Source: a virus (Duplodnaviria; Caudoviricetes). Taken from it: a DNA stretch of 64,000 bases. The notes below the pieces were generated by a model. That model was not told the DNA's origin. It searched no databases and worked only from the letters and a program-made list of their open reading frames with translations. The stretch is from the IMG/VR virus record IMGVR_UViG_2974592265_000001, positions 1 through 64,000 of that record. One strand, written 5' to 3'. The position numbers were made by a program, and so were the translations under genes. Positions 1,915 to 55,568 of the stretch are shown piece after piece. Numbering within the stretch: the first letter of the stretch is position 1; each line of letters starts with the position of its first letter.

Positions 1915-3384
1915 ATGGCTGCGACCAAGACACCAGGCTCGAAAGGATCGAGGTACGCGGCAACGGGTGCCACGGTGATCTTGCCGACCCGAAATCTTGC
2001 CGGTAAAGCCCGCGCCAAACGCCCAGGATCGGACCAGAAGAACGGTTCGACCATCCCCAATCCGTTGAAGACGTTCAACCAGAACGCGATCAACAACATC
2101 AGTTCCCGCACCGACGTCAACGAAATCATCCGCTTGCTCTGCCGTGAAGACGGCATGTTCAGCTCGGCGGCGAACTCGATGGCGGCCATCTCCGTGGGCA
2201 CTGGTTTCAGACTGGCAGGATATGACGCGACCGGTGCCATGAGCATCGAAGTCATGTCCGCTGCCTACAGCCTCATGGATGGGTTCTCGACGCTGCATGA
2301 TTACAGCAAGGGATATAACGATAAGCCAGGGATGCAGTCGCTGTTGTCGAGTCTTCAAACGGATGTCGTCACGACGGGAGGTTGTGGCGTTGAATTGGTG
2401 CTGGACAAGGAGTTCGGCCCCGAGCGGCTGGTGCCTATCGGATATTCCACGATTGCATGGGAAGCTGATGGCCAAGGAGGGCGTTATCCCACACAAGACG
2501 GTGGCGACATCAAGCTGAACATCCCCACCGTCTTCGTCGCTGAACACAACCGTAACCCGGACGAGGCCTACTCCGTCAGCTTGCTGCGGCCAGGCCTGTC
2601 TCAGGTGATGAACTTCAACGGCTTCATCGAAGACATGCACCGGGCGCTCAACCGCACCGGGCACAGTCGCCTGATCGCCAGCATCGTCTCGGAGAAGATC
2701 CAGAAGGCGGCTGACGACGAGACCCGCAACGACCCGGCCAAGATGGGCGCCATGTTCGACCTGGTGCTGCAGCAAGTGCAGGAAGCACTCGCTGGACTGG
2801 AGCCGGAAGACGCGGTGGTGACCTACGACAGCGTCGTCTACGACGTCAAGGACACCGGCGGCAACAAGGCCGACTACGCACCGATGATCGCCACCCTGGC
2901 CAACATGCTCGGGGCTTCCCTGAAGACCCCAGCCTCGGTCAGTGGCATGCGCGCATCGGGTGGCCAAGGCCTGTCCAACGCCGAGACGCTGATCTACCTG
3001 CAGGTCGTGCAAGGCACGCGCTCGCCGGTGGAAGAAGCGATGTCCCGCGCGCTGACCCTGGCCTGCCGCCTGCAAGGCGTCGACGGCTACGTGGCCTTCG
3101 AGTTCAACCCGATCAACCTGCGCCCCGACATCGAGCTGGAGGCCTACTTCGGTACGCGCCAGAAGCGGGTGTTGGAGCTGCTGAGCTGGGGCGTGATCAA
3201 CGAGGCCCACGCTTGCTGGGAACTCGGCATGCGCCCACAAGGCCTCAACGCCATTCTGGCCGGCACCCGTTTCTACGCCAAGGATGCTTCGGCGGAGCCT
3301 TCGGTCGAACCTGACCGGACCACTTCGACGGGCGCGGCACTCAACCCAGGCACGCCGGCGAAGTCCGGCGGCGCTGATCAATAA
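1915..3384 (+). CDS. Portal protein
   Basis: 489 aa directly after terL and before head protease; typical size and position. Confidence 0.8.
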   Translation: MAATKTPGSKGSRYAATGATVILPTRNLAGKARAKRPGSDQKNGSTIPNPLKTFNQNAINNISSRTDVNEIIRLLCREDGMFSSAANSMAAISVGTGFRLAGYDATGAMSIEVMSAAYSLMDGFSTLHDYSKGYNDKPGMQSLLSSLQTDVVTTGGCGVELVLDKEFGPERLVPIGYSTIAWEADGQGGRYPTQDGGDIKLNIPTVFVAEHNRNPDEAYSVSLLRPGLSQVMNFNGFIEDMHRALNRTGHSRLIASIVSEKIQKAADDETRNDPAKMGAMFDLVLQQVQEALAGLEPEDAVVTYDSVVYDVKDTGGNKADYAPMIATLANMLGASLKTPASVSGMRASGGQGLSNAETLIYLQVVQGTRSPVEEAMSRALTLACRLQGVDGYVAFEFNPINLRPDIELEAYFGTRQKRVLELLSWGVINEAHACWELGMRPQGLNAILAGTRFYAKDASAEPSVEPDRTTSTGAALNPGTPAKSGGADQ

Positions 3385-3394
3385 GGAGCCTGGC

Positions 3395-4882
3395 ATGGCC
3401 GTTGAACTCTGGCTGGGCACGGAAGCGTCCTTCAACAAACACAGCAGCTACGAGCTGAAGTACAACTTCGACAAAGAGGCGTACTCCAACTCGCCGTATG
3501 ACGACGACGGCTACGAAATCGACAAAGATTTTGGTGTAAGTAAGTCGCGTAAAGGCCTGTATCTGCTGGAAAAGGTCGGCGACATTCCGGTACTGAAAGT
3601 ACACGGTTCGCTGGTCGCCTCGTACCGCCGCTACCACCAGTGGTTCCCGGGCGAAGTGACCAGCTACGAGGCGATCAACGACGCCTTCGCGATCCTGGCT
3701 GAACAGGGCTACACCGACGTCGTGCTGGATCACAACAGCGGCGGCGGGCAGGTCAGCGGGCTGAACACCGTGACCGAGAACATGGAGCGACTGCAGGCCG
3801 GTGGCATGACCATCAAGGCCCACACCGACTCCGCGTCGTTCTCGGCCAGCTACTGGATCATGTCCAGCGCCAACCAGGTGACCGCCAGCAAGATGGCGGA
3901 GGTCGGCTCGATCGGCGTGATCGCGGTGGTCCGCACCTACGCCAACACGGAAGAGAACTTCGGCATCAAGTTCACCGTGCTGAAGGAAGGTGAGTTCAAG
4001 GCCGTGGGCAACCCCTACGAAGAGCTGAGCGAAGCGGACAAGAAGTACCTGCAGGAGAACCTGCGGGAGACCAACGCCTTCTTCCTCAATCACATTTCCG
4101 CGCAGCGCGCCCTGAGTCTCGACGACTACAAGGTGTGGGCTGACGGTAAAACCTTTTTCGCAGCGAAGGCCGTGAAAAATGGGCTGGTCGACAGGCTTTC
4201 AACGCTGGATGACCTTATTGGTAGCGGCGCGTCCGCAAAAACTACTGGCGACAGAAGGAAGTTCGAGATGAAGATCTCTGCTGAAAAACTCGCTCAGATC
4301 GAAGCGGGCGCGGCTCCAGCAAGCGTGCTCACCAAGGCTGAGCTGGCGCATTACGAAAAACAAGTGGCCGATCTGAAGGAGGCTACCGACAAGGAAGCCG
4401 CCGCACAGAAAGAGCTCGACGACGCCCAGGCGGAGAAGGACGCTCAGGACGCGCTGGACAAGGAAGCCGCTGACAAGCTCGAAGCCGAAGGCGAAAAGCC
4501 GCAGGCTACCGGCTTCGACGTCAAGGCCATGACCGACGCCCTGAAGGAAAACGGCAAGCTGGAAGCTCAGGTGGAAGCCCTGAACGAACGCCTGGCCAAA
4601 GCCGAAACCGCCCTGACTGAAGCCAAAGAGCAAACCGACAGCATGATCATCGTGGCGCAACACGCCGTGAAGAAGCTGCAGGTTGCCACCGGCAGCGCTC
4701 AGGTTGAGAAGTCCTCCGCCTCCGAAATCCTCGGTCAGTTCAACGACCTGCAGGGCAAGATGGCCAAGATGTTCAAGACCGAGCAGCAGTCCTCCGACAC
4801 CCCTGTCAAGGAAGTAGCTTCTTCCCCGGTGGCGGCGAACGTCCGTCAAAAAGTAACCCAACTCAACACTCAAAAGCGCTAA
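3395..4882 (+). CDS. Head maturation protease (S49/SppA-like) fused to scaffold-like coiled coil
   Basis: DHNSGGGQVSG, SASFSASYWIMS and GSIGV S49 motifs; acidic/Ala-rich coiled-coil C-terminal half; AAGGAG RBS before ATG 3395. Confidence 0.85.
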   Translation: MAVELWLGTEASFNKHSSYELKYNFDKEAYSNSPYDDDGYEIDKDFGVSKSRKGLYLLEKVGDIPVLKVHGSLVASYRRYHQWFPGEVTSYEAINDAFAILAEQGYTDVVLDHNSGGGQVSGLNTVTENMERLQAGGMTIKAHTDSASFSASYWIMSSANQVTASKMAEVGSIGVIAVVRTYANTEENFGIKFTVLKEGEFKAVGNPYEELSEADKKYLQENLRETNAFFLNHISAQRALSLDDYKVWADGKTFFAAKAVKNGLVDRLSTLDDLIGSGASAKTTGDRRKFEMKISAEKLAQIEAGAAPASVLTKAELAHYEKQVADLKEATDKEAAAQKELDDAQAEKDAQDALDKEAADKLEAEGEKPQATGFDVKAMTDALKENGKLEAQVEALNERLAKAETALTEAKEQTDSMIIVAQHAVKKLQVATGSAQVEKSSASEILGQFNDLQGKMAKMFKTEQQSSDTPVKEVASSPVAANVRQKVTQLNTQKR

Positions 4883-38138: not shown

Positions 38139-38566
38139 ACGTCCTTTCCTTTTTCAGTGGTGAAGAAGTCTTTGTGAATGGCGGGCCACATCTTGCGGAA
38201 CGCCTCAATCCGCCGGGCCATGAGTGATTCGTTGTGCTTGGCATCCCGCAGCTGCTTACGCAGATCACTGGTGTCGAGGAGGGCTCCCCGCATCCGCTGG
38301 TTTTCAGTTAGCAAGCGGGTGTTGTCAGCAAGGATCTGCTCGATGTCCACAGGCGGTGGGTTACGGTGCGGAGGCGCTTGGGGCGCCGGTGGCCGTGTCC
38401 AGTTTGGGTTTGGTGCAGGGTTCTGGTTGGCTGCGAGACCGAGACGACGTCGGCATTCCGCCAACGTCTCGTTCTCACGCTGCCAAGGCGGACCATCAGC
38501 AGGCATTCCCAGCAGCCTGTTGATGATCCGGCCTACCAGCCCCGCCTTAGTCGGCGATGTTGTCAC
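38135..38566 (-). CDS. Hypothetical Pro-rich/coiled-coil protein
   Basis: 143 aa, coupled between polymerase and exonuclease. Confidence 0.5.
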   Translation of the reverse strand: MTTSPTKAGLVGRIINRLLGMPADGPPWQRENETLAECRRRLGLAANQNPAPNPNWTRPPAPQAPPHRNPPPVDIEQILADNTRLLTENQRMRGALLDTSDLRKQLRDAKHNESLMARRIEAFRKMWPAIHKDFFTTEKGKDV

Positions 38567-41500
38567 TCACTACCTCCTCGTCTTCATCCAGTTCAACGTA
38601 GGTTGGCTTACGGATCGGATCGAACGGCTCCAGCAGATCCTTCTCCCAGATGTTGATCCCTTCAGTAAGGGCGCGATCCACGAAGGCAGCGACGTTCTCC
38701 TGGCTGATGTTGCGGCCGAGTTCGTGCACTTTACCCCAGTCGCAGCCGATGGAAAACTCCGGTACTTGGCGGACTTTGTGGCCAGGTGGGGTGGATTCTT
38801 CCATGTAGCGGCCGACTTCTTGGCAGTAGTCGTAGACATCGTCCTTGTGGACCCAGGACACCACTTCGTCGTAGATCGGAGCAAAGAAGACCATGCGCAG
38901 CCGGTCCATGATCCCGCTCTCGGCGATTCGGGTCAGCACGATGCGCAGCATCTGCGCGGCTGAGCCCTGAATCGTGGCGTTGGTGCCCTGGCGGTGCTGA
39001 CGGGCTACCCGACCGCTGTCGTTGCTGAACAGATCCGGAGTGGCGTGACGCTTGGTGCCGAAGGCCGTCAGCGTGAAACCGTTCTGGGTCATGAACTGCG
39101 CCGTCTCGGCTTGCCATGGACGAATGCGGGTGTACAGGTCGAAGGTGCCGTCCAGCAACTTCTTGGCTTCCTCGACCGGGACGATCAGGTTGCGCGACAA
39201 GGTGCCGGCACCGGCGCCGTATGCCATACCGAAGTTTACGGTCTTGGCCTTGCCCCGGATGGCCACGGTGATCTTGTTCAGCTTGTGGTTCTCGTCGTCC
39301 TTCGCTTCGATGAAGTCCTCGTAGGTCATCTTGGCGATGCCGGAACCGGTCATGCTGTGCAAGTCTTTTTCGTTGGCCGGGTCGTACACCGACATCATCA
39401 CCGGGTCGTTAGCGAGGTTCGCCATCAGGCGGATCTCTTGACCGTTGAAGTCGATGGCCACGCAGACGTGATCCGGGGTCGGCGGGATGTAGATCGACCG
39501 CATCACCTTGCCTTCGCCACGCTTGGCCACCTGCAGGATGTTCGGCGCGCTGCCGGTAGGCCTGGTGGTGTCGGTGCCAGCGTCGGTGATGGAAGGGTGA
39601 ACCTTGCCATCGCGGTGACGCCACATCGGGTACTTATCGTGGTACAGGCTGCACCTGGTGTTGGCGGACTTCACTCGGCGCAGGATAACCAGCGCGTCAC
39701 GCTGCCAGCATTCCTGCAGCACGTCGTTCGCCAGCGCCGTCAGGATGGCCTGCTCGTCAGTCGACGGGCCTGCTTCCTGAATGCCGACCGCCAGGCGGCC
39801 CTTGCCGATGTTCTTGCCGCGCAGCTTGACCGGGATGCCGATCTTGCAATACAACAGTTGCTGCATCTGCACAGGGCTGCCCACGTTCAGCGGATCGCCG
39901 AAGGTGACGATACGCGGCTCGACCTTGGCCAGCTTCTGCACCAGGGCGCCCAACTCGTCAAACGCCTTCTCGGCGACGAACAGCTTGTGGGTGCAGGTGT
40001 CTTCAGCTGACTCCGACTCGTCTGCCGCGCGGCGCAGGTCGCCCATCTTCAGGCAGCCCGCTGCAACGGCCGTGGCGATCGCCTTGATCAGCTCACGCTG
40101 ATCGTCGGTGACCTTCCACTCGTCTTCGAAGCCAGCCACGCCGACCTCGTAGTACCACTCGGTGATCGCCTTCTGCGTCAACTTCTCCAGCGGTGGCAGG
40201 TCGAGGTTGAGCAGGGCTGGCGCCAACTGGTTCGCTGTGAAGGCGAAGTCCGGCATCACCGACTCCTCGCGGAACGGCGTGTACTGGCAGGCTGCTTCCA
40301 GCTTCTTGCGCCACTCAGCGACCTTCGAGTTGGCGACGTCGACGTTGCCTTCAGCCTTCTTCTTGGCACCGCGGAAGATGTAATCCTTCTCGGCGTCAAT
40401 CAGCGACTTGCAGCCTGGCGTGATGTTGCCGGTGACGTTCTTCTCCAGAATGGCACGCAGTTCCAGCATACCCTCCTCGATGGTCTTCAGGTCCTGAGCG
40501 TGGATGCGTTTCTGGCACGCCCAGTTCATGTCGACACCGGCCACGTAGGAGCGCTGTAGCACCTCGGTCGGCCGTACTGCCCAGCGCCGGTAGAAGTCCC
40601 ACTGCCCGTCCAGCTTCAGCAGCAGCTCCAGCAAGTCGTGCAGGTGGCCGGTCACCAGGCTGTCGTCGGTGCCGTAGGTGAAGACTTCGTCAGCGGTCAG
40701 CTCACACATCATGCTGACGCCTTCACCGCCGTTACCGGCCGCCAGGGTGTCTTGGAACGAGGTCTGCTCGTAGCCCAGGTAATTCAGCGACAACGCCTTC
40801 AGGCCGGCTTCCATGTTCTCGTCGTAGAAGCGCTGCATGATCCGGGTGTCTTCGATTTCCTTGAGCCAGACACCGAGGTTGGTCTGGGTCACGACGCCTT
40901 CGAACAGGGCGTTGTGAGCGATCCGCCGGGTGTATTTCCCAGCGAATTCAAGGATCTCAAGGATCACGTCCTTATTGACGTTATTCGAGTCACGGTGGTC
41001 GACCGGGATGTAGATCACGTTCTCCAAGTGGCGACCGAACTGGAACGAGGCACCGGCCAGTTCCTGGCTTAGCATGTCGACGAAATTGCTGCCCGAAGTC
41101 GAGGCAATGCGGAAGTCACGAATCGGGTTCTTGTCGGAGGATTCATAGTCGAACGCGGTTTTGTCGCCCGCCTTGATCTCTTCGAAGATCTGCTCCTTGA
41201 GCTTGTCCCAGTTGGTCGAGTCAACGATCATCGGCACCGGCATCAGGTGACTGTACTCCGCCTCCCACATGTCCTCGCAACCGATCTCCTTCAGGCAGTT
41301 GTACAGCGCCGTCGGGTCCGGTACACGCTTGTGGATCTTCGGCTTGGTCAGCTTCTTCAGCCGGGGTTTCCAGCACAGCTCCGGCTTCAGGTTGGCCAGC
41401 TTCCAGCCCATCCGCCAGTCACCGAAGTTCTCGCGCAGCTTGATCAGGATCTTGTCGCCGGACTCCGCAATGGTCTCATCGAGGAGGTCGGTGTTGCCCT

Positions 41501-42212
41501 TGGCGACGATCTCAGCCAGTTCGTCCAGGCCGTCGGCGCCGTAGGCCTCCAGCAGCTTGAGGATCTTCGCCGGACCCATCCCCTTGACGCCGGGGTAGTT
41601 GTCCGAGGTGTCGCCCATGATCGACTTGGCGAAGCTGGTCAGCCGGTAGGGCAGGCCAGCCAGCTCCATCCCTTCCGGGTAGACGCCGTCTTCGCCGTTC
41701 AAGCCGGCGTGGTGGGCGACGTTCTTCAGGGTGACGATGGTGTCCTGGTTGACCAGTACCAGCAAGTCGGCATCGACCGTGCTGACATCCTTCGGGCCGG
41801 GGACTGTGTTGCAGATCCAGCCGATGAGGTCATCCGCCTCGACGTTCTCCACAAACATCTGGGTGGCACCGAGGGCTGCGAAGAACTTGCGTGCCCACAC
41901 CGACAGCTCTTTGTACTGAGCAATTTCTATCGGGCTTTTGTTTTTGTCCTCCTTGGCTGCCTGGCCTTTGTAGGCCGGGTAGATACCGAGGCGGTAGGCT
42001 TTGCCGGCGTCGTGTGCCACCAGCATTTCACGCGGGGAACCGCCCTTCTCAAGGATAGGGCGGATGTAGCGGGTCAGAAAGTCCGCCGCGCCGGCTTGCC
42101 AATCTGCAAACCGGCGATCGAGTTTCGTGCAGTGCAACGTTTTATCAGACACGCCGTAATAGGCGTGTTTGATACAAGCACGGAAGTCGATGATCTGAAG
42201 TGGATTCGTCAT
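38547..42212 (-). CDS. polA: Family A DNA polymerase with 5'-3' (FEN-like) and 3'-5' exonuclease domains
   Basis: VEADDLIG, VDADLL, GDTSDNYPGVKGMG (FEN/H3TH); FDYES, HNALFE, YGTDD (Exo I-III); IDFNGQEIR, AKTVNFGMAYG, IYDEVV (motifs A/B/C). Confidence 0.95.
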   Translation of the reverse strand: MTNPLQIIDFRACIKHAYYGVSDKTLHCTKLDRRFADWQAGAADFLTRYIRPILEKGGSPREMLVAHDAGKAYRLGIYPAYKGQAAKEDKNKSPIEIAQYKELSVWARKFFAALGATQMFVENVEADDLIGWICNTVPGPKDVSTVDADLLVLVNQDTIVTLKNVAHHAGLNGEDGVYPEGMELAGLPYRLTSFAKSIMGDTSDNYPGVKGMGPAKILKLLEAYGADGLDELAEIVAKGNTDLLDETIAESGDKILIKLRENFGDWRMGWKLANLKPELCWKPRLKKLTKPKIHKRVPDPTALYNCLKEIGCEDMWEAEYSHLMPVPMIVDSTNWDKLKEQIFEEIKAGDKTAFDYESSDKNPIRDFRIASTSGSNFVDMLSQELAGASFQFGRHLENVIYIPVDHRDSNNVNKDVILEILEFAGKYTRRIAHNALFEGVVTQTNLGVWLKEIEDTRIMQRFYDENMEAGLKALSLNYLGYEQTSFQDTLAAGNGGEGVSMMCELTADEVFTYGTDDSLVTGHLHDLLELLLKLDGQWDFYRRWAVRPTEVLQRSYVAGVDMNWACQKRIHAQDLKTIEEGMLELRAILEKNVTGNITPGCKSLIDAEKDYIFRGAKKKAEGNVDVANSKVAEWRKKLEAACQYTPFREESVMPDFAFTANQLAPALLNLDLPPLEKLTQKAITEWYYEVGVAGFEDEWKVTDDQRELIKAIATAVAAGCLKMGDLRRAADESESAEDTCTHKLFVAEKAFDELGALVQKLAKVEPRIVTFGDPLNVGSPVQMQQLLYCKIGIPVKLRGKNIGKGRLAVGIQEAGPSTDEQAILTALANDVLQECWQRDALVILRRVKSANTRCSLYHDKYPMWRHRDGKVHPSITDAGTDTTRPTGSAPNILQVAKRGEGKVMRSIYIPPTPDHVCVAIDFNGQEIRLMANLANDPVMMSVYDPANEKDLHSMTGSGIAKMTYEDFIEAKDDENHKLNKITVAIRGKAKTVNFGMAYGAGAGTLSRNLIVPVEEAKKLLDGTFDLYTRIRPWQAETAQFMTQNGFTLTAFGTKRHATPDLFSNDSGRVARQHRQGTNATIQGSAAQMLRIVLTRIAESGIMDRLRMVFFAPIYDEVVSWVHKDDVYDYCQEVGRYMEESTPPGHKVRQVPEFSIGCDWGKVHELGRNISQENVAAFVDRALTEGINIWEKDLLEPFDPIRKPTYVELDEDEEVVSDNIAD

Positions 42213-48282: not shown

Positions 48283-48509
48283 TAGAAAACCCTCTGTGAC
48301 CTGCTTCGTTGGATCTTCTCGTGATCGTCGCGGCAGTCCACATCGCAGAAGCGCTGTGGATCCGGCAACGGTTCGCTGCAGTTGTGGCAGGACCCGACGT
48401 AGGCCAGTCGTGGGACTGGCTTTTCACGGGCGATCCGCAGCTGCTCCTCGAGGAGACGTTCCTGTTCAACAACCGCCCGGTCGACCGGGTCTGCGTAATT
48501 TTCCGTCAT
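48282..48509 (-). CDS. TraR/DksA-type C4 zinc finger protein
   Basis: N-terminal ADPVDRA (DxxDxA), CHNC...FCDVDC. Confidence 0.75.
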   Translation of the reverse strand: MTENYADPVDRAVVEQERLLEEQLRIAREKPVPRLAYVGSCHNCSEPLPDPQRFCDVDCRDDHEKIQRSRSQRVF

Positions 48510-51394
48510 TCTGCTGGCTCCGATTCCCTGGCAAAGTTGTTGAGCGAAGTACCCTTCTCAGTCAGGCGCTTGGCGTTGATCACGTAGACTTCGATCTCGT
48601 TGTTGTTCGGGTGCGGCTCGATGCGCTCGAAGTACACCTCACCCTCAATCAGCTGAGTCAGCTGCTGGAACTGGCGGATCACCGGCACCTCGCCAACCAT
48701 CCGTGAGTAGGCATGGTAACGCGGTAGGCAGGACTGCAGGACCAGGTACAGCGAGTCGCCCTGGCGCCAGTAGTGCTTGCCGGCCTCCAGACGCAGGCGG
48801 TCTTCGAAGGTGTCGTCCGCCATGATGTTCATCGACCCGAGAACGCGGTCGACTTCCGAGGCTGACTTGCCACGTTCCACTTCGGTCACACGACCGCCGA
48901 GGTAGGTGATCAGCTCCGATTCCAGCCAGCGGATGTCCTCGACACCGTCGACGCCGAACTCGGTCATGGTGTGGATCAGCATGTGCAGCCCGGTCAGGCA
49001 GCACTGCATGCCCCAGCGAGGGCGGTCCTCCATCCCGGCGTGGATCTGCTCCGCCTTGCTGTGGAAGATCTTCAGCAGCGCGGTAGGGGAGGTCCCCAGT
49101 GCCACGGTGACCAGTGCCCGGGCCATCCGCAACAGGGCCTGCTTGTTCTGCACGCAGACCCGGTAGTTGTCGCGGTAGACCTTGTTCTGCAGCGACTTGG
49201 CCTGCAGGCGGACTTCCACCGAGCGGCTGCGCAGGGCAGGAGCGGTGGCGGACTGCTCACTGGTGTACACCAACGGCGCCGAAACACGGTCCTCGCTGAC
49301 AGCCAGCTCCCGGTCAGCGCCGATACGGCCACGCTGAATAGGGGCATGACTCCACGCTGCCTTGAGGATGCCGAGGATGGCACCGTAGCGGGTGTTGCCC
49401 AGCTGCACCGGGTTCACTTCTTCGATCAGCCGAGGCACCGTGGTGCTGCTGCTCACGTACTTGGTCAGCGGGAACAGCGTGCCGACCTCGACGTTCTGCA
49501 GTTCGGCCTTGGTGTAGTCGATGCCGTTGATCATCGCCATCAGCATGGCCAGGCAGGACTTGCCAGCGCCGGCGTTGCCGAAGATGTTCATCAGCGGAAA
49601 CTGAGGTTCCTCGAACTGGATGTGTTCACGGAAGTGGCACGAGACAAACCAGCCCAGCATCTGGGCCACGGCCACCGGTTCATTCACTTTGCACAGCGCT
49701 TTCATCACCGTGGCGAGCTGTTCATCGTCCTGCAGCGGGTTGCTGCCGTTGATCAACGCAGGCGACTGCCGCGCATTGCCGTTGAAGCGGTACGGGCTGC
49801 GCCCACCCAGGTTGGTGATGGCGTTGCCAGCTTCGACGTAGTGCGCGACCGTGCCCTTCTCGCCGCGGTCCAGCACGATTCCGCAGACGTTCGCACGAAT
49901 CATCTTGTCTAACTCCTTGTCCTCGGTCTTGTCCCGTGCAAACTTCAGCAGGGCCACCAGTATTTTTTGAATTTCCCCGTCGCCGGCATACACCGCTGCG
50001 TCCCGGCCTTTAACGCCGGAGATCAGGTCACGCTTGGAACTCCAGGCGCGCTCCGACAACGACACCTCACTGGCCACGTCGCAACCGTCCACGATCAGTT
50101 TCCCGACCAGTTCCTTGCGCTCGGTGTTGCGCCAGCTGGTGAAGCCTTTGTCAGTGGTGTAGGGCTCCAACTCGAACACTTCCAGCGTCGGCCAGAAGGT
50201 GAAGTTGGTCAGCTGCCGGCTGCTGTCCTCACCGACCAAGAAGTACCCGGCCGGGTCCCAGCGGATGCGGACCTGCGTGTTGAAGTTGCTGACGTTCTCT
50301 TGGGTCGTCTCGCCGCTGGCCACATCCGAACGGCAGATAGGGCACTGACGGCATGGAGTGCCGATCGCTGCGATCAGGGCGCCAGGCGCAAACTTGATCG
50401 AGCCGCTGAAGGTCCGGTGCAGCTGGCCTTGAACATGCTTGAGGCGTTCGGTTTCCGAAGGCCGGCTGCTCGACTCCACGTTCTTCACGAACGGGCGCAC
50501 CAGCAGCTCCATGTACTCCTTCTCTTCCGACTTCTCGTAGCGGGCAGCGATGTAGGCTGCCAGCTGCATTGCCGTCTGGTTCCAGTTGGAGCCTTCAGCG
50601 TGGCCTTCGGTGATCAGCTTCTCGATGCAGCCAGGGATGCCGTCCCACTCACGCATGGCTTCCTTGGGCACCACGCAGGCGGCGCTCATGGCTTTGACCT
50701 TGCGCTGCGCCGTGGTCTTGGCAGCCTTCAGCAGTTGTTCAGCCTTGGCGTAGGTGACGTTCTTGCCTGGCTGCGGCTGGGCCAGAACAGGGCGCGGTGC
50801 AGCGACGATGGAGTGGTATTCCTCGCTGTTCATGTGCGCCAGTTCGTTGACCGTGGTGCCGACCTTGTAGGTGCCGCTGCCGGGGCGTGGAATGCCTTCA
50901 CAGCGCCACATCCGGCCACGGCCACAGGAGTACACCGACTCATCCAGGCTGCACGGAGACTCCAGGTGCGCGCCCTTCATGATGGTCAGCATGATCTCCC
51001 GATAGATCATCGGCAGGAACTTTGTCGGCTTTTTAACGCCAAACACTTGCGCCGGGATGGTGATGTGCACACCCTTCCCGCCGGACAGCCAGCAGTGAAT
51101 GAACTCCTCCGGGATGTCCAGCTTGTTCATCAGGTAGTCGAGGACCGCGTTGACGTCAGCCAGCACCTGGTCGATGTCGTCGGCGTCGTCAAAGTCCAGG
51201 TACATCGGACCCATGTAATGCACAGTCTCGACGGCGTTAAGGCCGTTTTCAGAGACTTCTTCGGGGTTTTGGTCAACCATCAGGACGGTTCTGAACGCAG
51301 GCGACTTCGGAAGCTCAGCTGATTGCAGCTGCTCTTCTGTGTACATCCGCCATGGTTCCTTCTTGTCCGGTCTGAACTGAAGGAAGTAATACAT
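48506..51394 (-). CDS. Primase-helicase (AEP primase + C-terminal P-loop)
   Basis: YLDFD, SGGKGVH AEP motifs; Cys cluster; FGNAGAGKS P-loop. Confidence 0.85.
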   Translation of the reverse strand: MYYFLQFRPDKKEPWRMYTEEQLQSAELPKSPAFRTVLMVDQNPEEVSENGLNAVETVHYMGPMYLDFDDADDIDQVLADVNAVLDYLMNKLDIPEEFIHCWLSGGKGVHITIPAQVFGVKKPTKFLPMIYREIMLTIMKGAHLESPCSLDESVYSCGRGRMWRCEGIPRPGSGTYKVGTTVNELAHMNSEEYHSIVAAPRPVLAQPQPGKNVTYAKAEQLLKAAKTTAQRKVKAMSAACVVPKEAMREWDGIPGCIEKLITEGHAEGSNWNQTAMQLAAYIAARYEKSEEKEYMELLVRPFVKNVESSSRPSETERLKHVQGQLHRTFSGSIKFAPGALIAAIGTPCRQCPICRSDVASGETTQENVSNFNTQVRIRWDPAGYFLVGEDSSRQLTNFTFWPTLEVFELEPYTTDKGFTSWRNTERKELVGKLIVDGCDVASEVSLSERAWSSKRDLISGVKGRDAAVYAGDGEIQKILVALLKFARDKTEDKELDKMIRANVCGIVLDRGEKGTVAHYVEAGNAITNLGGRSPYRFNGNARQSPALINGSNPLQDDEQLATVMKALCKVNEPVAVAQMLGWFVSCHFREHIQFEEPQFPLMNIFGNAGAGKSCLAMLMAMINGIDYTKAELQNVEVGTLFPLTKYVSSSTTVPRLIEEVNPVQLGNTRYGAILGILKAAWSHAPIQRGRIGADRELAVSEDRVSAPLVYTSEQSATAPALRSRSVEVRLQAKSLQNKVYRDNYRVCVQNKQALLRMARALVTVALGTSPTALLKIFHSKAEQIHAGMEDRPRWGMQCCLTGLHMLIHTMTEFGVDGVEDIRWLESELITYLGGRVTEVERGKSASEVDRVLGSMNIMADDTFEDRLRLEAGKHYWRQGDSLYLVLQSCLPRYHAYSRMVGEVPVIRQFQQLTQLIEGEVYFERIEPHPNNNEIEVYVINAKRLTEKGTSLNNFARESEPAE

Positions 51395-51675: not shown

Positions 51676-53004
51676 TCAAGCCTTGAACCCCACCTTGTTG
51701 ATAAGCAATTCCTGTTGTGGCCGGCTGAACGCCACGTACAAAAGCCGCTGCCTTTCACTGCGGATTGGATTCTCCAGCAGATCTTTGACATCGACCATTA
51801 CACGCTTAAAGGTGCTGCCCTGGCTGCGATGGACCGTGATGCAGTAGCAATACTTGAGGTCGGCAAACAGGTCAGTGAACTTGTGCAGCTGCCGCCAGTG
51901 ATAGCTCGCGTTGCCCCCGGTTTTGGCGGCTTCGAGGGCTTTGGTTTTGATCTTCTGGCAGTGAGCTTCGAACCGCTCATACTCGTCTTCGTGCAGCACA
52001 TGAGCGAAGACTTGCTTCACATCAGCATACACAGGATTCAGCGTGACCAGCCACGTCTTCCACGACGTGCTGCTATATTCGTCGAACATCTTGCTTTCGC
52101 TAACCGCGCCAACCAGCGACTCTTCGTCCGTGGACAGGATGGTGTCGCCGTCACGGCTGATCGGTTTGGCAGTCACCAGGCGCTCACCCAGCTCAAAGCG
52201 GGCGGCGTTAGGGCCGTAGATTTTGGCGCGAATGGCGTTGTTGATGTCATCCACACGGAAGTTGCGCCACGCCAGGACACGGACATCCTCGAGGTCCGTG
52301 GTCAGGTCGAACTGATCCACCACCGTCTTCAGGAAGTGGGCAGCTTTGACCACCGTGACGTTGTTCTCCGGCACGAAGTCGAAGTGGAAGGTCTCCTTGT
52401 TCTTGATCGCGGCTCGCAGTGGTGCGGTGATCAGCTGGATGCCGTTCGGTGTTCCGTCCGGGTTGTTCTTCTGCCGCTCCGCCTGGGTCAGCTCGACCGT
52501 CGGGAACAGGCCGAACGCCTTGGAGGTGGTCTCCTTCACCGGCGGCAGCTGCATGTCATCGCCCATCATCAGGCAGAACACTTGCTGAGCCTCCAGCTCC
52601 GGCAGGAAGTAGTCGAACAGGAAGTACTCGCCCAGCATCGACATCTCGTCGCAGACCAGGACGTGGTACTCGCCGATCACGCTGTCCCGCACCTGCACCG
52701 CACGCTTCTTCTCGTCGGTGGGCATCATGGACAGGCCGAGGGCGCTGTGGGCGGTCTTGAAGCCGACCTTGTCCATCGGCAGCCCCGCTGCCCGCGCGGC
52801 CTTCTCCAGCTGCTTGACGGCTTTGTTGGTGGGCGCCACGAAGATGGCCTTGACCCCGCCCTCGATCAGGATGCTGGCCAACTCCATGACACAAAAAGTT
52901 TTACCGGTGCCGCCTTCGCCAATGATGGTGAAGCCAGGCTTGCCTTCTTCGTAGGCATCGAGCGCCCCGTTGACGCCGATGACCTGGCCGCTGTTCAGTC
53001 CCAT
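51676..53004 (-). CDS. Dda/RecD-like SF1B helicase
   Basis: GEGGTGKT, APTNKA, CDEMSM, GDDMQLPPV, ITVHRSQGSTF, LYVAFSRP; start ATG 53004 (or GTG 53013). Confidence 0.92.
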   Translation of the reverse strand: MGLNSGQVIGVNGALDAYEEGKPGFTIIGEGGTGKTFCVMELASILIEGGVKAIFVAPTNKAVKQLEKAARAAGLPMDKVGFKTAHSALGLSMMPTDEKKRAVQVRDSVIGEYHVLVCDEMSMLGEYFLFDYFLPELEAQQVFCLMMGDDMQLPPVKETTSKAFGLFPTVELTQAERQKNNPDGTPNGIQLITAPLRAAIKNKETFHFDFVPENNVTVVKAAHFLKTVVDQFDLTTDLEDVRVLAWRNFRVDDINNAIRAKIYGPNAARFELGERLVTAKPISRDGDTILSTDEESLVGAVSESKMFDEYSSTSWKTWLVTLNPVYADVKQVFAHVLHEDEYERFEAHCQKIKTKALEAAKTGGNASYHWRQLHKFTDLFADLKYCYCITVHRSQGSTFKRVMVDVKDLLENPIRSERQRLLYVAFSRPQQELLINKVGFKA

Positions 53005-53014
53005 ACCCGTCACC

Positions 53015-53046
53015 TTATAAATTTATATGTTTATATGCTTATAGGA
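53015..53046. repeat. AT-rich tandem array of four TTATA-containing 8-mers
   Basis: TTATAAAT TTATATGT TTATATGC TTATAGGA. Confidence 0.75.
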
Positions 53047-53076
53047 TGGGCACGATAAAGAACCGTGCCCTCCCGG

Positions 53077-53400
53077 TCAAGATCTCGGCGAGAAAATATC
53101 TACGACGGATCCGCTTGACACGTCGGCGGCGGGTCTATCCCGCATGTGCCGCTGAGTATGGAAGAACAGCACGACGTCCTTCGACGCTTCTTCCAGGTCG
53201 CCGGTAGCCAGGAACCCTTTGACGAACTCCACGTAAGGGTCGCGCAGCTGTTCAGCGGTGAAGGCCTTGATGCCTTCCGGCCGCAGGAACTGATCCAGCG
53301 CTTCCACGTAATAGTCGATCCACTGACGCTGCTGCGCCGTGGTGCCGGTGTCGCCCTTCTGTTTGACGATCATCAGTAGTTCAGTTTTTATGCGTTCCAC
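53077..53400 (-). CDS. Hypothetical protein
   Basis: 107 aa, GTG start with AAGGAG RBS. Confidence 0.55.
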   Translation of the reverse strand: MERIKTELLMIVKQKGDTGTTAQQRQWIDYYVEALDQFLRPEGIKAFTAEQLRDPYVEFVKGFLATGDLEEASKDVVLFFHTQRHMRDRPAADVSSGSVVDIFSPRS

Positions 53401-53436
53401 ACTTTCTCCTTCTGGGCCAACGGCCAGTGTTACGGG

Positions 53437-54240
53437 TTAATCCGGGATGCCGGTCATCAGCATGGTGCGAGCCCGGCTGACCAGCCGTGGGTCGGCCACC
53501 TGCTTGACGTTGCGTACCTTGCTGGTGAACTCCTCCGGTAGGAAGTCGACCGCCTCGGGGAACTGATCCTGCAGCTGTTTCAGCGTGCGGATCGAGGCGA
53601 GGATCTTGGTCAGATCGTCGTGCATCTCACCCGCTGCCTTCAGTACTGCGAGGAACGAGGCCATCAGGCGATCGACCTGCAGCGACAGCTGGTAGGCGGC
53701 CTTGGAGTAGGGCAGGCGAGGGTCGTTCTTGTCCGTCATCACCACGTCGGGGTGGAAGATGTGACCCAGGCCACGGATGCTTGGCAGGTCGGCGTGGCTG
53801 GTCTTCCAGCTGTAGTGGAAGTCGTAACCGCCGGTGTACACGCTGGTGAAGTTGAGGAACCCGCCCCACTCAGCGCTGACCGCGCGGCGGACTTCGTCCC
53901 ACTTATCCTTGTCAGCTTCGCGCTCTTTCTGCTTGCTGGCGTAGCCGACGGCGATCTTGCCCAGCTCGGTGTTCTCGGTAGTGTTGTGCTTGTCACCGAC
54001 CTTGTTGGTGACCAGGTAGACCACTCCCTTCATGCCGCTGAAGATCTGCTCCTGAATCAACTCAGCCCAGCGTGCCTGGGGCACCTCCGGGATCTTCAGC
54101 TCGATGTGTTTGGCGAACAGCTGGCGCCACAGCTTGTCCAGCGCCTTGGCCGCCTTGGCTGTCGGCGCTGCCTGGCGTTTGGCGGCGTGGCGAATCATTT
54201 CGGCGATCAGGTGCTTTTTGACTTCGTTGGTGATGTTCAT
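53437..54240 (-). CDS. Nmad5-like (nucleotide-modification-associated domain 5) protein
   Basis: 267 aa from MNITNEVKKHLI; C-terminal LASIRTLKQLQDQFPEAVDFLP characteristic of Nmad5. Confidence 0.7.
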   Translation of the reverse strand: MNITNEVKKHLIAEMIRHAAKRQAAPTAKAAKALDKLWRQLFAKHIELKIPEVPQARWAELIQEQIFSGMKGVVYLVTNKVGDKHNTTENTELGKIAVGYASKQKEREADKDKWDEVRRAVSAEWGGFLNFTSVYTGGYDFHYSWKTSHADLPSIRGLGHIFHPDVVMTDKNDPRLPYSKAAYQLSLQVDRLMASFLAVLKAAGEMHDDLTKILASIRTLKQLQDQFPEAVDFLPEEFTSKVRNVKQVADPRLVSRARTMLMTGIPD

Positions 54241-54617
54241 TGCTGCCCCTTGTAGGCGGTGTTGAAGTGGTGGGTGAGGACCTTGTACAGGTTGACCGTC
54301 TGTGTGACCCCTAGTTTTCGGCACAGCTGGACCCGTTCCTCGTCGGTCCAGATCGCCATCAGTACCGACTCCTGCGGCACCTCCCACATCGCGCCGGGGG
54401 TGTACAGCATGGCGAAGTTCAGAGTCTTGCCGACGTTGCTGCGCTGCGGCCGGGTGACCTCGCTGTACATCAGGCCCAGGGTGATGGCGGTGGTGATGGT
54501 GTGGATGTCCAGCAGTGCGCTGGTCGGCTGCAGCGGCAAGTCACCGTGCTTCTCGTAGTGCTCCAGCACCCGCTGCTCGATGGCAGCGAAGTCCGTGGTA
54601 ATTTTCTTCTCGGTCAC
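54237..54617 (-). CDS. Stand-alone PolA motif A/O-helix ('fingers') mini-protein
   Basis: 126 aa; GTG with AGGAG RBS; DFAAIEQRVLEHY...DIHTITT...EVTRPQRSNVGKTLNFAMLY. Confidence 0.75.
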   Translation of the reverse strand: MTEKKITTDFAAIEQRVLEHYEKHGDLPLQPTSALLDIHTITTAITLGLMYSEVTRPQRSNVGKTLNFAMLYTPGAMWEVPQESVLMAIWTDEERVQLCRKLGVTQTVNLYKVLTHHFNTAYKGQQ

Positions 54618-55018
54618 TTCAGGTACTCCTTTCGCACACGGCGCAACACCGTGGCATGGCTTAGGCCTGGCCAGCCGTACAGCCTGGCCTTGCCGTCTTC
54701 GGTAAATTGAATCCACTCGGTCCAGGTGTACGGATCAGCCAGGCTGATTGAGCGGTCCACCCTTCGGGTCAGTTTCAGTCGGGTGTCTTCACCGACGCCG
54801 GCCGCCAGCAGGTCGAACATCCCCCGCTGCGCCGACTCAGTGAGCGACATGGACGGGAAGCGCTCGTCCTTGGCGAACTCGATCAGGGTGGAATAGGGGA
54901 TGGACCGCTCCTTTTCCCAGCGGTTTATGAATGTTTCCAGCGCCTTACGCTTCCATCTTGATGTTGCTTCAAGCAGCGTCTGCCCGGGTCTCGCCGGCCA
55001 GGTAGGCTGCAATATCAT
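54614..55018 (-). CDS. Hypothetical protein (start uncertain)
   Basis: Open frame ending in TGA overlapping next GTG. Confidence 0.45.
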   Translation of the reverse strand: MILQPTWPARPGQTLLEATSRWKRKALETFINRWEKERSIPYSTLIEFAKDERFPSMSLTESAQRGMFDLLAAGVGEDTRLKLTRRVDRSISLADPYTWTEWIQFTEDGKARLYGWPGLSHATVLRRVRKEYLK

Positions 55019-55568
55019 GCTCACGTCCACGTTCCTGCTCCTCGGTCCTTTTCGGGACAAACACCCAGGCCTGTACAAAGGCCCCTTCGTTCATGGTCAT
55101 CACTTCAGGGTTACTGTCGAGGATGACGATGTCCGACACCGCCTTGGCGATTTCCACCGCCCGTTCACGGGCATCGGCCATCAGCAGCTTGTTGCGCAGC
55201 ATCCGCTCGTTGAGCTTGGTGATCTTTGCCAGCGGGAACGTCTGGCCGATGTCCTGCATCAGCTGCAGCTCTTCTTCGGTCCAGCTGCCCCGAGGCTTTT
55301 CCAGGTTGGTGATGAAGCGCAGCAGCCGGGCTCGCCAGTGCTGCGGCTCGACCTGGGCAAACTTCATCAGCACCAGGCACTGGCTGACGCTCAGCTCGCC
55401 GGGCTTGCTGACCGGCACCACGCGGTAGACACCGCGTTTCTCCGGCACCGCGCGGCACTCGGCGTAGGACGTGGCCTGCTCCTCGTCGCTGAACTTGGGG
55501 CCAGGCGCCCAGTAGCCTGGCTTGCGCCACTGTATTTGGTGGGTCCAGGGTTTGAACGCTCGGGTCAT
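54969..55568 (-). CDS. Hypothetical protein
   Basis: 199 aa, ATGA coupling. Confidence 0.6.
   Translation of the reverse strand: MTRAFKPWTHQIQWRKPGYWAPGPKFSDEEQATSYAECRAVPEKRGVYRVVPVSKPGELSVSQCLVLMKFAQVEPQHWRARLLRFITNLEKPRGSWTEEELQLMQDIGQTFPLAKITKLNERMLRNKLLMADARERAVEIAKAVSDIVILDSNPEVMTMNEGAFVQAWVFVPKRTEEQERGREHDIAAYLAGETRADAA

What the first reader, a model, noticed from the sequence alone, without database searches (positions are those of the whole stretch)
54237..54617. 126-aa stand-alone DNA polymerase A 'fingers' mini-protein (motif A + O-helix, no palm motif C)
Seen: DFAAIEQRVLEHY-x15-DIHTITTAITLGLMYSEVTRPQRSNVGKTLNFAMLY, with its own AGGAG RBS and an ATGA overlap with the Nmad5 gene. 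Established: bacterial Pol I reads DYSQIELRIMAHL-x14-DIHRATAAEVFG...VTSEQRRSAKAINFGLIY. The motif A Asp, steric-gate Glu, His, and O-helix Arg/Lys/Phe/Tyr all have counterparts here, but no HDE motif C follows. By eye it resembles cellular Pol I more than this phage's own polymerase (DFNGQEIR...DLHSMTG...AKTVNFGMAYG). Inference: an intact ORF that keeps dNTP-binding residues suggests a selected function rather than debris, such as a dNTP or signal-nucleotide sponge, a decoy for defence systems that sense phage polymerases, or an inhibitor/partner of host Pol I.
Basis: partly seen in the sequence, partly recalled or inferred. Interest (0 to 1): 0.82.

Follow-up and report, generated by a model that had tools for sequence, protein, structure and literature searches.

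The report
Stand-alone polymerase fingers protein in phage
A group of Pseudomonas-type phages keeps a small, intact gene that is only the nucleotide-binding "fingers" piece of a family A DNA polymerase; it cannot copy DNA and has been reused for a job that is still unknown and apparently undescribed.

Summary
It is homologous to the motif A to O-helix part of family A polymerases (hhalign 99.4%, E 1.5e-21; Klenow 376-444, E 1.4e-6).

It is not debris:
- 26 close homologs are 119-129 aa long.
- About 20 more clusters reach down to ~30% identity, all in one clade of 82-89 kb PMBT3-like phages, at the same place in the replication module.
- GC3 is 0.89 and dN/dS is ~0.44, like its neighbours.

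The fingers-side dNTP ligands (His, Arg, Lys, Tyr, one aromatic) are invariant or nearly so. Thumb, motif C and exonuclease are absent. The phage has its own complete PolA, from which the mini-protein does not derive (4.4 bits against 45-56 for foreign PolAs).

The gene sits in a variable slot and is missing from two clade genomes, so it is an accessory gene. It also occurs without the Nmad5-like neighbour, and the neighbour occurs without it.

Best reading: an exapted, non-catalytic module that binds triphosphates. The biological role (replication accessory or counter-defence) is untested. I found no published description. The scan also noted this same stretch once more, in another window.

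The parts
54237..54617 (-). 126-aa mini-protein: PolA motif A strand plus fingers helices (about L to O2), with a family-specific ~20-aa insert after the O helix
   Evidence: ORF and sequence; PF00476 27.5 bits; Klenow 376-444 E 1.4e-6; hhalign 99.4%; homologs; GC by codon position 0.57/0.38/0.89
54626..54630 (-). AGGAG ribosome-binding site, 8 nt before the GTG start
   Evidence: read from the sequence
54237..54240 (-). ATGA stop/start overlap between the mini-protein gene and the downstream 267-aa gene
   Evidence: read from the sequence
53437..54240 (-). 267-aa Nmad5-like neighbour: frequent but not obligate partner gene, no PolA homology
   Evidence: Pfam Nmad5 24.7 bits, below the cut-off of 27; phrog_15487 E 9e-58; 37 homologs; AF2 pLDDT 86; hhalign against PolA prob 0.1%
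54614..55030 (-). Conserved upstream gene of unknown function; probable true start is GTG at 55030 with a GAGGAG RBS; its stop overlaps the mini-protein start (GTGA)
   Evidence: conservation in all related loci; conserved GAGGAG-N7-GTG
38547..42212 (-). The phage's own complete PolA (5'-3' exo, 3'-5' exo, pol with motifs A, B and C); not the source of the mini-protein
   Evidence: Pfam 181.6 bits on profile 12-380 of 381; invariant D921, E926, R986, K990, F994, Y998, D1115 and nearly invariant (>=90%) H1114 in A4; 4.4 bits to the mini-protein profile

Best explanation
The gene encodes an exapted, non-catalytic copy of the mobile fingers subdomain of a family A DNA polymerase. It spans the motif A strand through about helix O2 and has been made self-sufficient by a ~20-residue hydrophobic insert after the O helix. 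SHOWN: homology to PolA; absence of thumb, motif C and exonuclease, so it cannot polymerise; descent from a PolA lineage other than the phage's own; purifying selection; a fixed position in the replication gene cluster of one clade of 82-89 kb lytic phages; dispensability, since two clade genomes lack it. INFERRED: the surface-exposed residues that in PolA only serve to hold the incoming Mg-dNTP stay invariant or nearly so while the rest of the protein drifts to ~30% identity. These are H734, R754, K758, Y766 and the aromatic at 762, and in most members also D705 and E710. The protein therefore most likely still binds a nucleoside triphosphate (or pyrophosphate, or a phosphate-rich ligand) without turning it over. 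It would act as an accessory nucleotide-binding factor made together with the replication genes. Whether that serves replication and nucleotide supply or counter-defence is open.
For: Homology and register. The structural second look is in register: model 33-76 matches Pol I 727-767 (rmsd 2.9 A, 30% identity, Z 3.3), and model 31-126 matches KlenTaq 630-706. The C-terminal hairpin is collinear with the PolA O1/O2 region in P0094.
Selection: 26 homologs of 119-129 aa with 31 invariant columns. About 20 further 50%-identity clusters of 88-155 aa match the full profile length, whereas full PolAs match only columns 5-78. In the wide alignment D37, A44, V54, R59, K64 and Y72 are invariant, H39 is 25/26, position 68 is always F or Y, and D9 and E14 are each kept in 20 of 26. 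The D37-to-Y72 segment is the most conserved. Median dN/dS is 0.44, against 0.40-0.53 for neighbours and 0.24 for the helicase. GC3 is 0.89.
Same synteny in all long contexts. No copy in 185,579 prokaryote species genomes.
Roles of E710 and Y766 in forming the dNTP pocket: PMC3715850. From memory, not checked here: R754, K758 and H734 contact the triphosphate in PolA ternary complexes, and a synthetic 50-residue Klenow peptide (about residues 728-777, Mullen et al. 1989, J Biol Chem) was reported to bind dNTPs on its own. That stretch is the invariant core of this protein.
Against: No binding was measured. The same residues are the most conserved in PolA generally, so part of their conservation could reflect fold or another anionic partner such as DNA backbone or an acidic protein. 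The AF2 model is only moderate (pLDDT 73.6), and whole-model fold searches give no significant PolA match (Foldseek E about 1; best VIA Z 3.4). The Maxrubnervirus-type members carry a one-residue insertion between the Arg and Lys of the O helix. Bulk dNTP sequestration by a 14-kDa protein would need very high expression. Two related phages do without the gene.
Confidence: 0.45

Rival explanations
1. It is a replisome or DNA adaptor. The domain has lost nucleotide binding and is kept as a helical module that binds DNA (template or primer end) or another replication protein (phage PolA, RecD-like helicase, primase-helicase, host Pol I) and modulates replication.
For: It always lies among replication genes. 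Two relatives (P0067, P0069) carry an N-terminal extra domain with weak HTH signals: HTH_38 E 0.005 and atlas neighbours at 0.79-0.81, which would suit a DNA-tethered role. In PolA, Y766 and the O/O1 region also contact the template (PMC3715850).
Against: Net charge is about -1, so it is not basic. The ~20-aa insert sits exactly at the O/O1 junction that forms the template pre-insertion site, while the triphosphate ligands are the invariant ones.
Confidence: 0.2
2. It is a counter-defence decoy. The protein mimics the surface of a polymerase fingers domain that a host immune sensor recognises, or otherwise neutralises a defence, and its residues are kept to preserve the mimicry.
For: It sits in a variable slot between two conserved genes. 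That slot holds the mini-protein alone, the mini-protein plus a 144-aa membrane protein, the membrane protein alone, or nothing. This is typical of accessory or host-interaction genes. It is dispensable in two clade genomes.
Against: It resembles foreign Pol I-type enzymes, not the phage's own PolA, so it would be a poor decoy for sensors of this phage's polymerase. There are no PADLOC or known anti-defence matches. It is retained across the clade down to ~30% identity, more like a near-core gene.
Confidence: 0.1
3. It is a trans-acting subunit. The mini-protein supplies a dNTP-binding fingers element to another enzyme, either the translationally coupled Nmad5-like protein or the AEP-type primase-helicase, and forms a composite nucleotidyl-transferring or nucleotide-modifying enzyme.
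For: Stop/start overlap or direct adjacency with the Nmad5-like gene in the window, PMBT3 and four distant loci. Motif A Asp and Glu are kept in most members.
Against: The Nmad5-like protein has no PolA homology (hhalign prob 0.1%) and no palm-like fold match. The mini-protein occurs without the Nmad5-like gene (L005, L004). The Nmad5-like gene occurs without the mini-protein (UAntarctica, L022, KPP25). The same primase is present in the genomes that lack the mini-protein.
Confidence: 0.1
4. It is a non-functional remnant of a captured polA fragment, or an ORF kept only to couple translation of the downstream gene.
For: It is only a fragment of an enzyme and scores below Pfam's gathering threshold.
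Against: Constant length, residue-specific conservation, dN/dS well under 1, host-like codon usage, a family-specific conserved insert and C-terminus, and persistence down to ~30% identity.
Confidence: 0.03

Closest known systems
Fingers subdomain of family A DNA polymerases (E. coli Pol I Klenow residues ~700-800; Bst, Taq)
   Same: Homologous sequence in the same order: motif A DxxxxE, the D-I-H motif and the O-helix R..K...F...Y. The C-terminal helical hairpin is collinear with O1/O2. All fingers-side dNTP ligands are kept.
   Different: It is a free-standing 126-aa protein with no thumb, no palm motif C, no exonuclease and no helices P/Q. It carries a ~20-aa conserved insert after the O helix. 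This clade also has one extra residue between the O-helix Arg and Lys. It is below the Pfam threshold.
Split PolA genes of some T7-like cyanophages (exo and pol domains in two genes; Czernecki et al. 2023, PMC10201439)
   Same: Parts of a PolA are encoded as separate genes in a phage.
   Different: In those phages the two halves are complementary and rebuild one enzyme. Here the phage already has a complete, unrelated-lineage PolA, and no gene encodes the missing palm and thumb. That survey discarded all PolA sequences under 350 aa, so a family like this one would not have been seen.
Synthetic 50-residue Klenow peptide (about residues 728-777) reported to bind dNTPs and DNA (Mullen, Shenbagamurthi and Mildvan 1989; recalled from memory, not held in the library)
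   Same: It covers the same stretch that is the invariant core of the mini-protein (residues 35-85). It is a precedent that this stretch can bind nucleotide outside the polymerase.
   Different: It is an artificial peptide, not a natural gene product, and gives no biological role.
Phage nucleotide-binding 'sponge' proteins (Tad1, Tad2, Acb2)
   Same: They offer only a possible functional analogy: small, non-enzymatic phage proteins that bind nucleotides.
   Different: No sequence or fold relation was found. Those proteins bind cyclic or ADPR-derived signals, not triphosphates. There is no evidence here for a defence link.
phrog_30466 (122-position PHROG annotated 'DNA polymerase') and short viral PolA-domain clusters in the ESM Atlas (91, 113 and 140 aa)
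   Same: These are short phage proteins with PolA similarity. Half of the wide family hits phrog_30466, best E 7.5e-8. Atlas scores are 0.89-0.90.
   Different: The window's own protein does not reach phrog_30466 at E 0.01. The scores are no better than those to full-length PolA families. Membership and completeness of those clusters were not examined.

Membership tests
Family A DNA polymerase (PF00476 / TIGR00593), as an enzyme | Score above the curated family threshold | tested here: not met
   PF00476 27.5 bits against a cut-off of 34.3. TIGR00593 24.4 bits against a cut-off of 600.
Family A DNA polymerase (PF00476 / TIGR00593), as an enzyme | Motif A (DxxxxE: metal-ligand Asp and steric-gate Glu) | tested here: met
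   D9 and E14 align to D705 and E710. Each is kept in 20 of 26 members of the wide family.
Family A DNA polymerase (PF00476 / TIGR00593), as an enzyme | Motif B / O helix (R, K, F, Y) | tested here: met
   R59, K64, F68 and Y72 align to R754, K758, F762 and Y766. R, K and Y are invariant and position 68 is always F or Y.
Family A DNA polymerase (PF00476 / TIGR00593), as an enzyme | Motif C (HDE, second catalytic Asp) and the palm sheet | tested here: not met
   The protein ends ~55 residues after the O helix. The match covers only profile positions 155-222 of 381. There is no HDE in the sequence. The downstream gene has no PolA homology.
Family A DNA polymerase (PF00476 / TIGR00593), as an enzyme | Thumb subdomain and 3'-5' exonuclease or vestigial exo domain | tested here: not met
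   At 126 aa the match begins at residue 5. No upstream ORF matched PolA at E <= 1.
PolA fingers subdomain, as a homologous domain | Significant profile-profile homology in the correct register | tested here: met
   hhalign 99.4%, E 1.5e-21, columns 5-78. PDB profile search gives Klenow E 1.4e-6. 937 library hits at E <= 0.001; of the 150 listed, apart from the short family members, two 236-237-aa fused forms, PolA fragments and one 2166-aa repeat protein (P0086), all are full-length PolAs.
PolA fingers subdomain, as a homologous domain | Same three-dimensional fold | tested here: inconclusive
   The AF2 model is all-helical with pLDDT 73.6. Nearly all top Foldseek hits are PolA but at E about 1. 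VIA Z is 2.3-3.4, in register, for example rmsd 2.9 A over 40 residues to Pol I 727-767.
Nmad5 (PF18757), for the neighbouring 267-aa gene | Score above the Pfam gathering threshold | tested here: not met
   24.7 bits against a cut-off of 27. 7 of 37 homologs carry a precomputed PF18757 hit, so it is a distant relative at best.

The most novel reading that the evidence does not exclude
A polymerase fingers domain has been domesticated by a phage lineage into a free-standing, non-enzymatic nucleotide-triphosphate binder. It would protect the infection by capturing a triphosphate-bearing signal or substrate that a host defence makes or destroys, or by regulating the phage replisome according to dNTP supply. 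This would be the first natural case of a replicative-polymerase substrate-binding subdomain reused as a ligand-binding protein.
Probability: 0.15. Interest if true: 0.85.

Novelty: new variant of a known kind. Interest (0 to 1): 0.6.

Why it matters
Polymerase subdomains are usually thought of as inseparable parts of one enzyme. Here the mobile, dNTP-selecting part has lived on its own under selection across a whole phage clade. If it binds nucleotides, it offers three things: a minimal natural model of the first step of dNTP recognition, a possible new class of phage accessory or counter-defence protein, and a compact nucleotide-binding scaffold. It also exposes an annotation problem. Surveys of PolA discard short sequences, and the neighbouring, unrelated gene is the one labelled 'DNA polymerase' in PMBT3, in the RefSeq records of KPP25 and phiR18, in CRPAP1904 and in PHROGs. 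The cultured phage PMBT3 carries a homolog, so the function can be tested directly.

Tried and rejected
Partner binding and transcription are therefore untested.
- Whole-model fold searches gave no significant hit. Foldseek against PDB had a best E of 0.84, though nearly all top rows are PolA. In the unbiased VIA search the top rows were unrelated small helical domains at Z <= 4.3, with Klenow at rank 39, Z 2.8.
- The Nmad5-like model has no informative fold match; only helical-hairpin look-alikes appear at Z <= 5.6. It has no PDB sequence match either.
- Idea rejected: the mini-protein plus the downstream gene form a split PolA. hhalign of the downstream family against PolA gives prob 0.1%.
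- Idea rejected: it is a recent duplicate of the phage's own PolA.
- Idea rejected: the extra N-terminal domain of the fused forms equals the extra 144-aa gene of PMBT3. There is no similarity, and that gene is a membrane protein.
- The short PolA-like hits outside the family (P0110, P0149, P0161, P0098, P0128, P0189) look like truncated or frameshifted pieces of ordinary PolAs, or the C-terminal halves of split ones. They are not further mini-protein families.
- The 8-fold match of a 2166-aa protein (P0086) to columns 70-101 is a weak resemblance to a Myb/SANT-like first helix at 2.5-8.5 bits per repeat, and I treat it as chance.
- The Iyer et al. 2013 paper that defined Nmad5 is not held in the library. 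The 1989 Klenow-peptide paper was not found.
- A pattern search with the wide alignment A3 failed because it has no conserved stretch.
- There are no promoter- or terminator-like sites around the gene beyond chance.
- PADLOC gave no hit for the mini-protein, and NCBIfam gave only weak, far-below-cut-off DNA polymerase I hits.

Full report
WHAT IS THERE

The window is 64 kb of an 88,403-bp IMG/VR virus record. It is related to the lytic siphovirus Pseudomonas phage PMBT3 (Maxrubnervirus, 87 kb, 60% GC).

On the minus strand, 54617-54237 is an open frame of 126 codons. It starts with GTG, preceded by AGGAG (54630-54626) at 8 nt. The GTG overlaps the TGA of the upstream gene, and its own TGA overlaps the ATG of the downstream 267-aa gene (ATGA). 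GC by codon position is 0.57/0.38/0.89, the same pattern as the phage's polymerase and helicase. No promoter- or terminator-like site flanks it beyond chance. It is an internal gene of a long minus-strand operon.

HOMOLOGY

- Pfam DNA_pol_A matches residues 6-75 to profile positions 155-222 of 381 at 27.5 bits (E 2e-6, cut-off 34.3). NCBIfam Pol I models give the same stretch.
- A profile of 26 homologs hits the Klenow fragment at E 1.4e-6. The alignment puts D9/E14 on D705/E710 (motif A), D37/H39 on D732/H734, and R59/K64/F68/Y72 on R754/K758/F762/Y766 (O helix).
- Profile-profile comparison with an alignment of 17 full PolAs gives 99.4% probability, E 1.5e-21, over columns 5-78.
- The last 50 residues do not align in that comparison. 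In one PolA (P0094), however, columns 98-126 match the segment directly after the O helix (LAxxLGITxxEAxxLYxxY..F, the O1/O2 hairpin).
- The structural second look aligns model residues 31-126 to KlenTaq 630-706, and 33-76 to Pol I 727-767 (rmsd 2.9 A, 30% identity). The Z values are low, 2.3-3.4.

I read the protein as the motif A strand plus helices L to about O2, that is the mobile fingers subdomain. It carries a family-specific insert of about 20 residues (PGAMWEVPxExxLMAIWTD) between O and O1. Thumb, motif C, helices P/Q and the exonuclease are absent, so it cannot be a polymerase.

The AF2 model is an all-helical domain of moderate confidence (pLDDT 73.6, pTM 0.61). Whole-model fold searches are not significant.

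NOT A COPY OF THE RESIDENT POLYMERASE

[quoted passage not shown] The mini-protein profile scores that protein 4.4 bits, the best foreign PolAs 45-56 bits and Klenow 31 bits. BLASTP against it finds only a 13-residue match.

IT IS SELECTED

- The word-indexed search found 26 proteins of 119-129 aa at 51-100% identity, mostly on 84-89 kb contigs. They share 31 invariant columns.
- The exhaustive profile search of 1.8 billion representatives found 937 hits.
- About 20 further clusters of 88-155 aa, plus two 236-237-aa forms with an extra N-terminal domain, match the whole profile length. Nearly all the other listed hits are full-length PolAs or PolA pieces that match only columns 5-78.
- In the wide alignment (identity to the window protein 25-54%, mean column identity 21%), D37, A44, V54, R59, K64 and Y72 are invariant. 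H39 is 25/26, T55 and Q58 are 24/26, position 68 is always F or Y, and P81 is 24/26.
- D9 and E14 are each kept in 20 of 26. The rest are substitutions or short N-termini.
- The D37-Y72 segment is clearly the most conserved part.
- Pairwise NG86 dN/dS among seven clade members has a median of 0.44, like the neighbouring genes (0.40-0.53) and above the helicase (0.24). dS is 0.5-1.3 and is depressed by strong GC3 bias, so these ratios are upper-side estimates.
- None of 185,579 prokaryote species genomes holds a family member.

GENOMIC CONTEXT

Every context long enough to judge is the same gene order:

1. C5 methyltransferase
2. several small ORFs
3. a conserved ~138-aa ORF
4. the mini-protein
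5. an Nmad5-like protein of 258-272 aa
6. a ~105-aa protein
7. a RecD-like helicase
8. a ~82-aa protein
9. a ~960-aa primase-helicase
10. an SNF2 helicase

The slot itself varies:

- The window and three relatives have the mini-protein alone.
- PMBT3 and two others have a 144-aa membrane protein plus the mini-protein.
- One 83.7-kb genome (96% complete) has only the membrane protein.
- Phage UAntarctica (81 kb, same synteny) has neither. A whole-record profile search confirms that both of these genomes lack the mini-protein.
- Conversely, L005 (the fused HTH-like form) and L004 have the mini-protein but no Nmad5-like gene.
- Kochitakasuvirus phages such as KPP25 have a distant Nmad5-like gene but no mini-protein.

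So the mini-protein is near-universal in the clade (14 of 16 contexts), is dispensable, and is not an obligate partner of the Nmad5-like protein. That protein has no detectable PolA homology and no informative fold match.

HOW IT MOST LIKELY WORKS

Shown: it is a non-catalytic, selected, stand-alone fingers domain expressed from the replication operon.

Inferred: R754, K758 and H734 in PolA are exposed residues whose known job is to hold the triphosphate of the incoming dNTP (my knowledge of PolA ternary complexes). Y766 and E710 shape the nucleotide pocket (PMC3715850). Their invariance in a family that has otherwise drifted to ~30% identity argues that an anionic, nucleotide-like ligand is still bound.

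The insert lies at the O/O1 junction, which in PolA forms the template pre-insertion site. Its conserved hydrophobic residues (W78, L86, I89, W/Y/F90) probably build a new core in place of the palm contact. This is inference.

A synthetic Klenow peptide covering the same core was reported long ago to bind dNTPs (recalled from memory, not verified here).

I therefore favour a non-enzymatic triphosphate or nucleotide binder at about 45%. The rivals are a DNA or replisome adaptor (20%), a defence decoy (10%) and a trans-acting subunit of another enzyme (10%). A dead remnant is essentially excluded (3%). What the binding is for cannot be decided with these tools. The variable-slot location and the dispensability lean towards an accessory or host-interaction role rather than a core replication role.

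COMPARISON WITH WHAT IS KNOWN, AND NOVELTY

It is homologous to PolA but fails the membership test for the enzyme: there is no motif C, no thumb, and the score is sub-threshold. The known split PolAs of T7-like cyanophages are complementary halves of one enzyme (PMC10201439). Here nothing complements the fragment, and a full PolA is present. That survey removed all sequences under 350 aa. The PMBT3 paper does not mention the gene or any polymerase, and GenBank calls the homolog hypothetical. I found no description of a natural stand-alone fingers protein.

I class it as a new variant of a known kind. Interest is 0.6: it is a clear, conserved and testable oddity whose function is still unknown.

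LIMITS

No expression data, no binding data and no complex prediction could be obtained. Structural support is weak, and the functional reading rests on conservation patterns.

Noticed in passing
window 53437-54240 (-); PMBT3 MG596799 56886-57689; KPP25 NC_024123 42001-42762: The Nmad5-like neighbour is annotated 'DNA polymerase A' in PMBT3 and 'DNA polymerase' in the RefSeq records of PMBT3, KPP25 and phiR18, in the CRPAP1904 record and in phrog_15487. It has no PolA homology (hhalign prob 0.1%) and no polymerase-like fold match. This looks like a propagated mislabel, perhaps shifted by one gene from the real PolA-like mini-protein next door.
   Followed up: partly
window 54969-55078 (-): The 199-aa ORF (54969-55568) and the next ORF overlap. 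Both frames are conserved in all relatives. A conserved GAGGAG-N7-GTG suggests that the downstream gene really starts at GTG 55030 (138 aa), which gives a conserved ~62-nt out-of-frame overlap rather than a frameshift site.
   Followed up: partly
L003 5534-5968 (PMBT3), L009 ~3560-3989, L012 ~3550-3974, L022 ~2570-3000: A ~144-aa membrane protein with a strongly conserved C-terminal tail (LLYAIAHTARFARRHKKLFDKHVKDPxAHK) comes and goes in the same slot as the mini-protein. It has no family match in Pfam or PHROGs.
   Followed up: partly
L005 5001-5711 (P0067) and P0069: Two relatives fuse a ~125-aa N-terminal domain with weak helix-turn-helix signals to the mini-domain. In L005 the Nmad5-like gene is absent, and the fused gene is followed directly by the ~105-aa protein and the helicase.
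   Followed up: partly
PHROG phrog_30466; ESM Atlas clusters of 91, 113 and 140 aa: Other short phage protein families labelled DNA polymerase / PolA-domain exist; one Atlas cluster has 424 members, 90% viral. They may be further stand-alone PolA pieces or just fragments. This was not examined.
   Followed up: no
P0086 (2166 aa, from the representative library): Eight repeats of 'NWTxEExxDLLxIWGxEEnQ' (Myb/SANT-like first helix) weakly match columns 70-101 of the mini-protein family, which is the family-specific insert. This is probably chance.
   Followed up: partly
window 48506-51394 (-) and PMBT3 51965-54856: The 962-aa protein matches a PHROG primase family (phrog_16345, E 1e-60) and shows primase-like (DxD, GGKGVH) and Walker A (GNAGAGKS) motifs by eye. 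Its PMBT3 homolog is annotated 'RNA polymerase-binding transcription factor', which is probably another mislabel.
   Followed up: no
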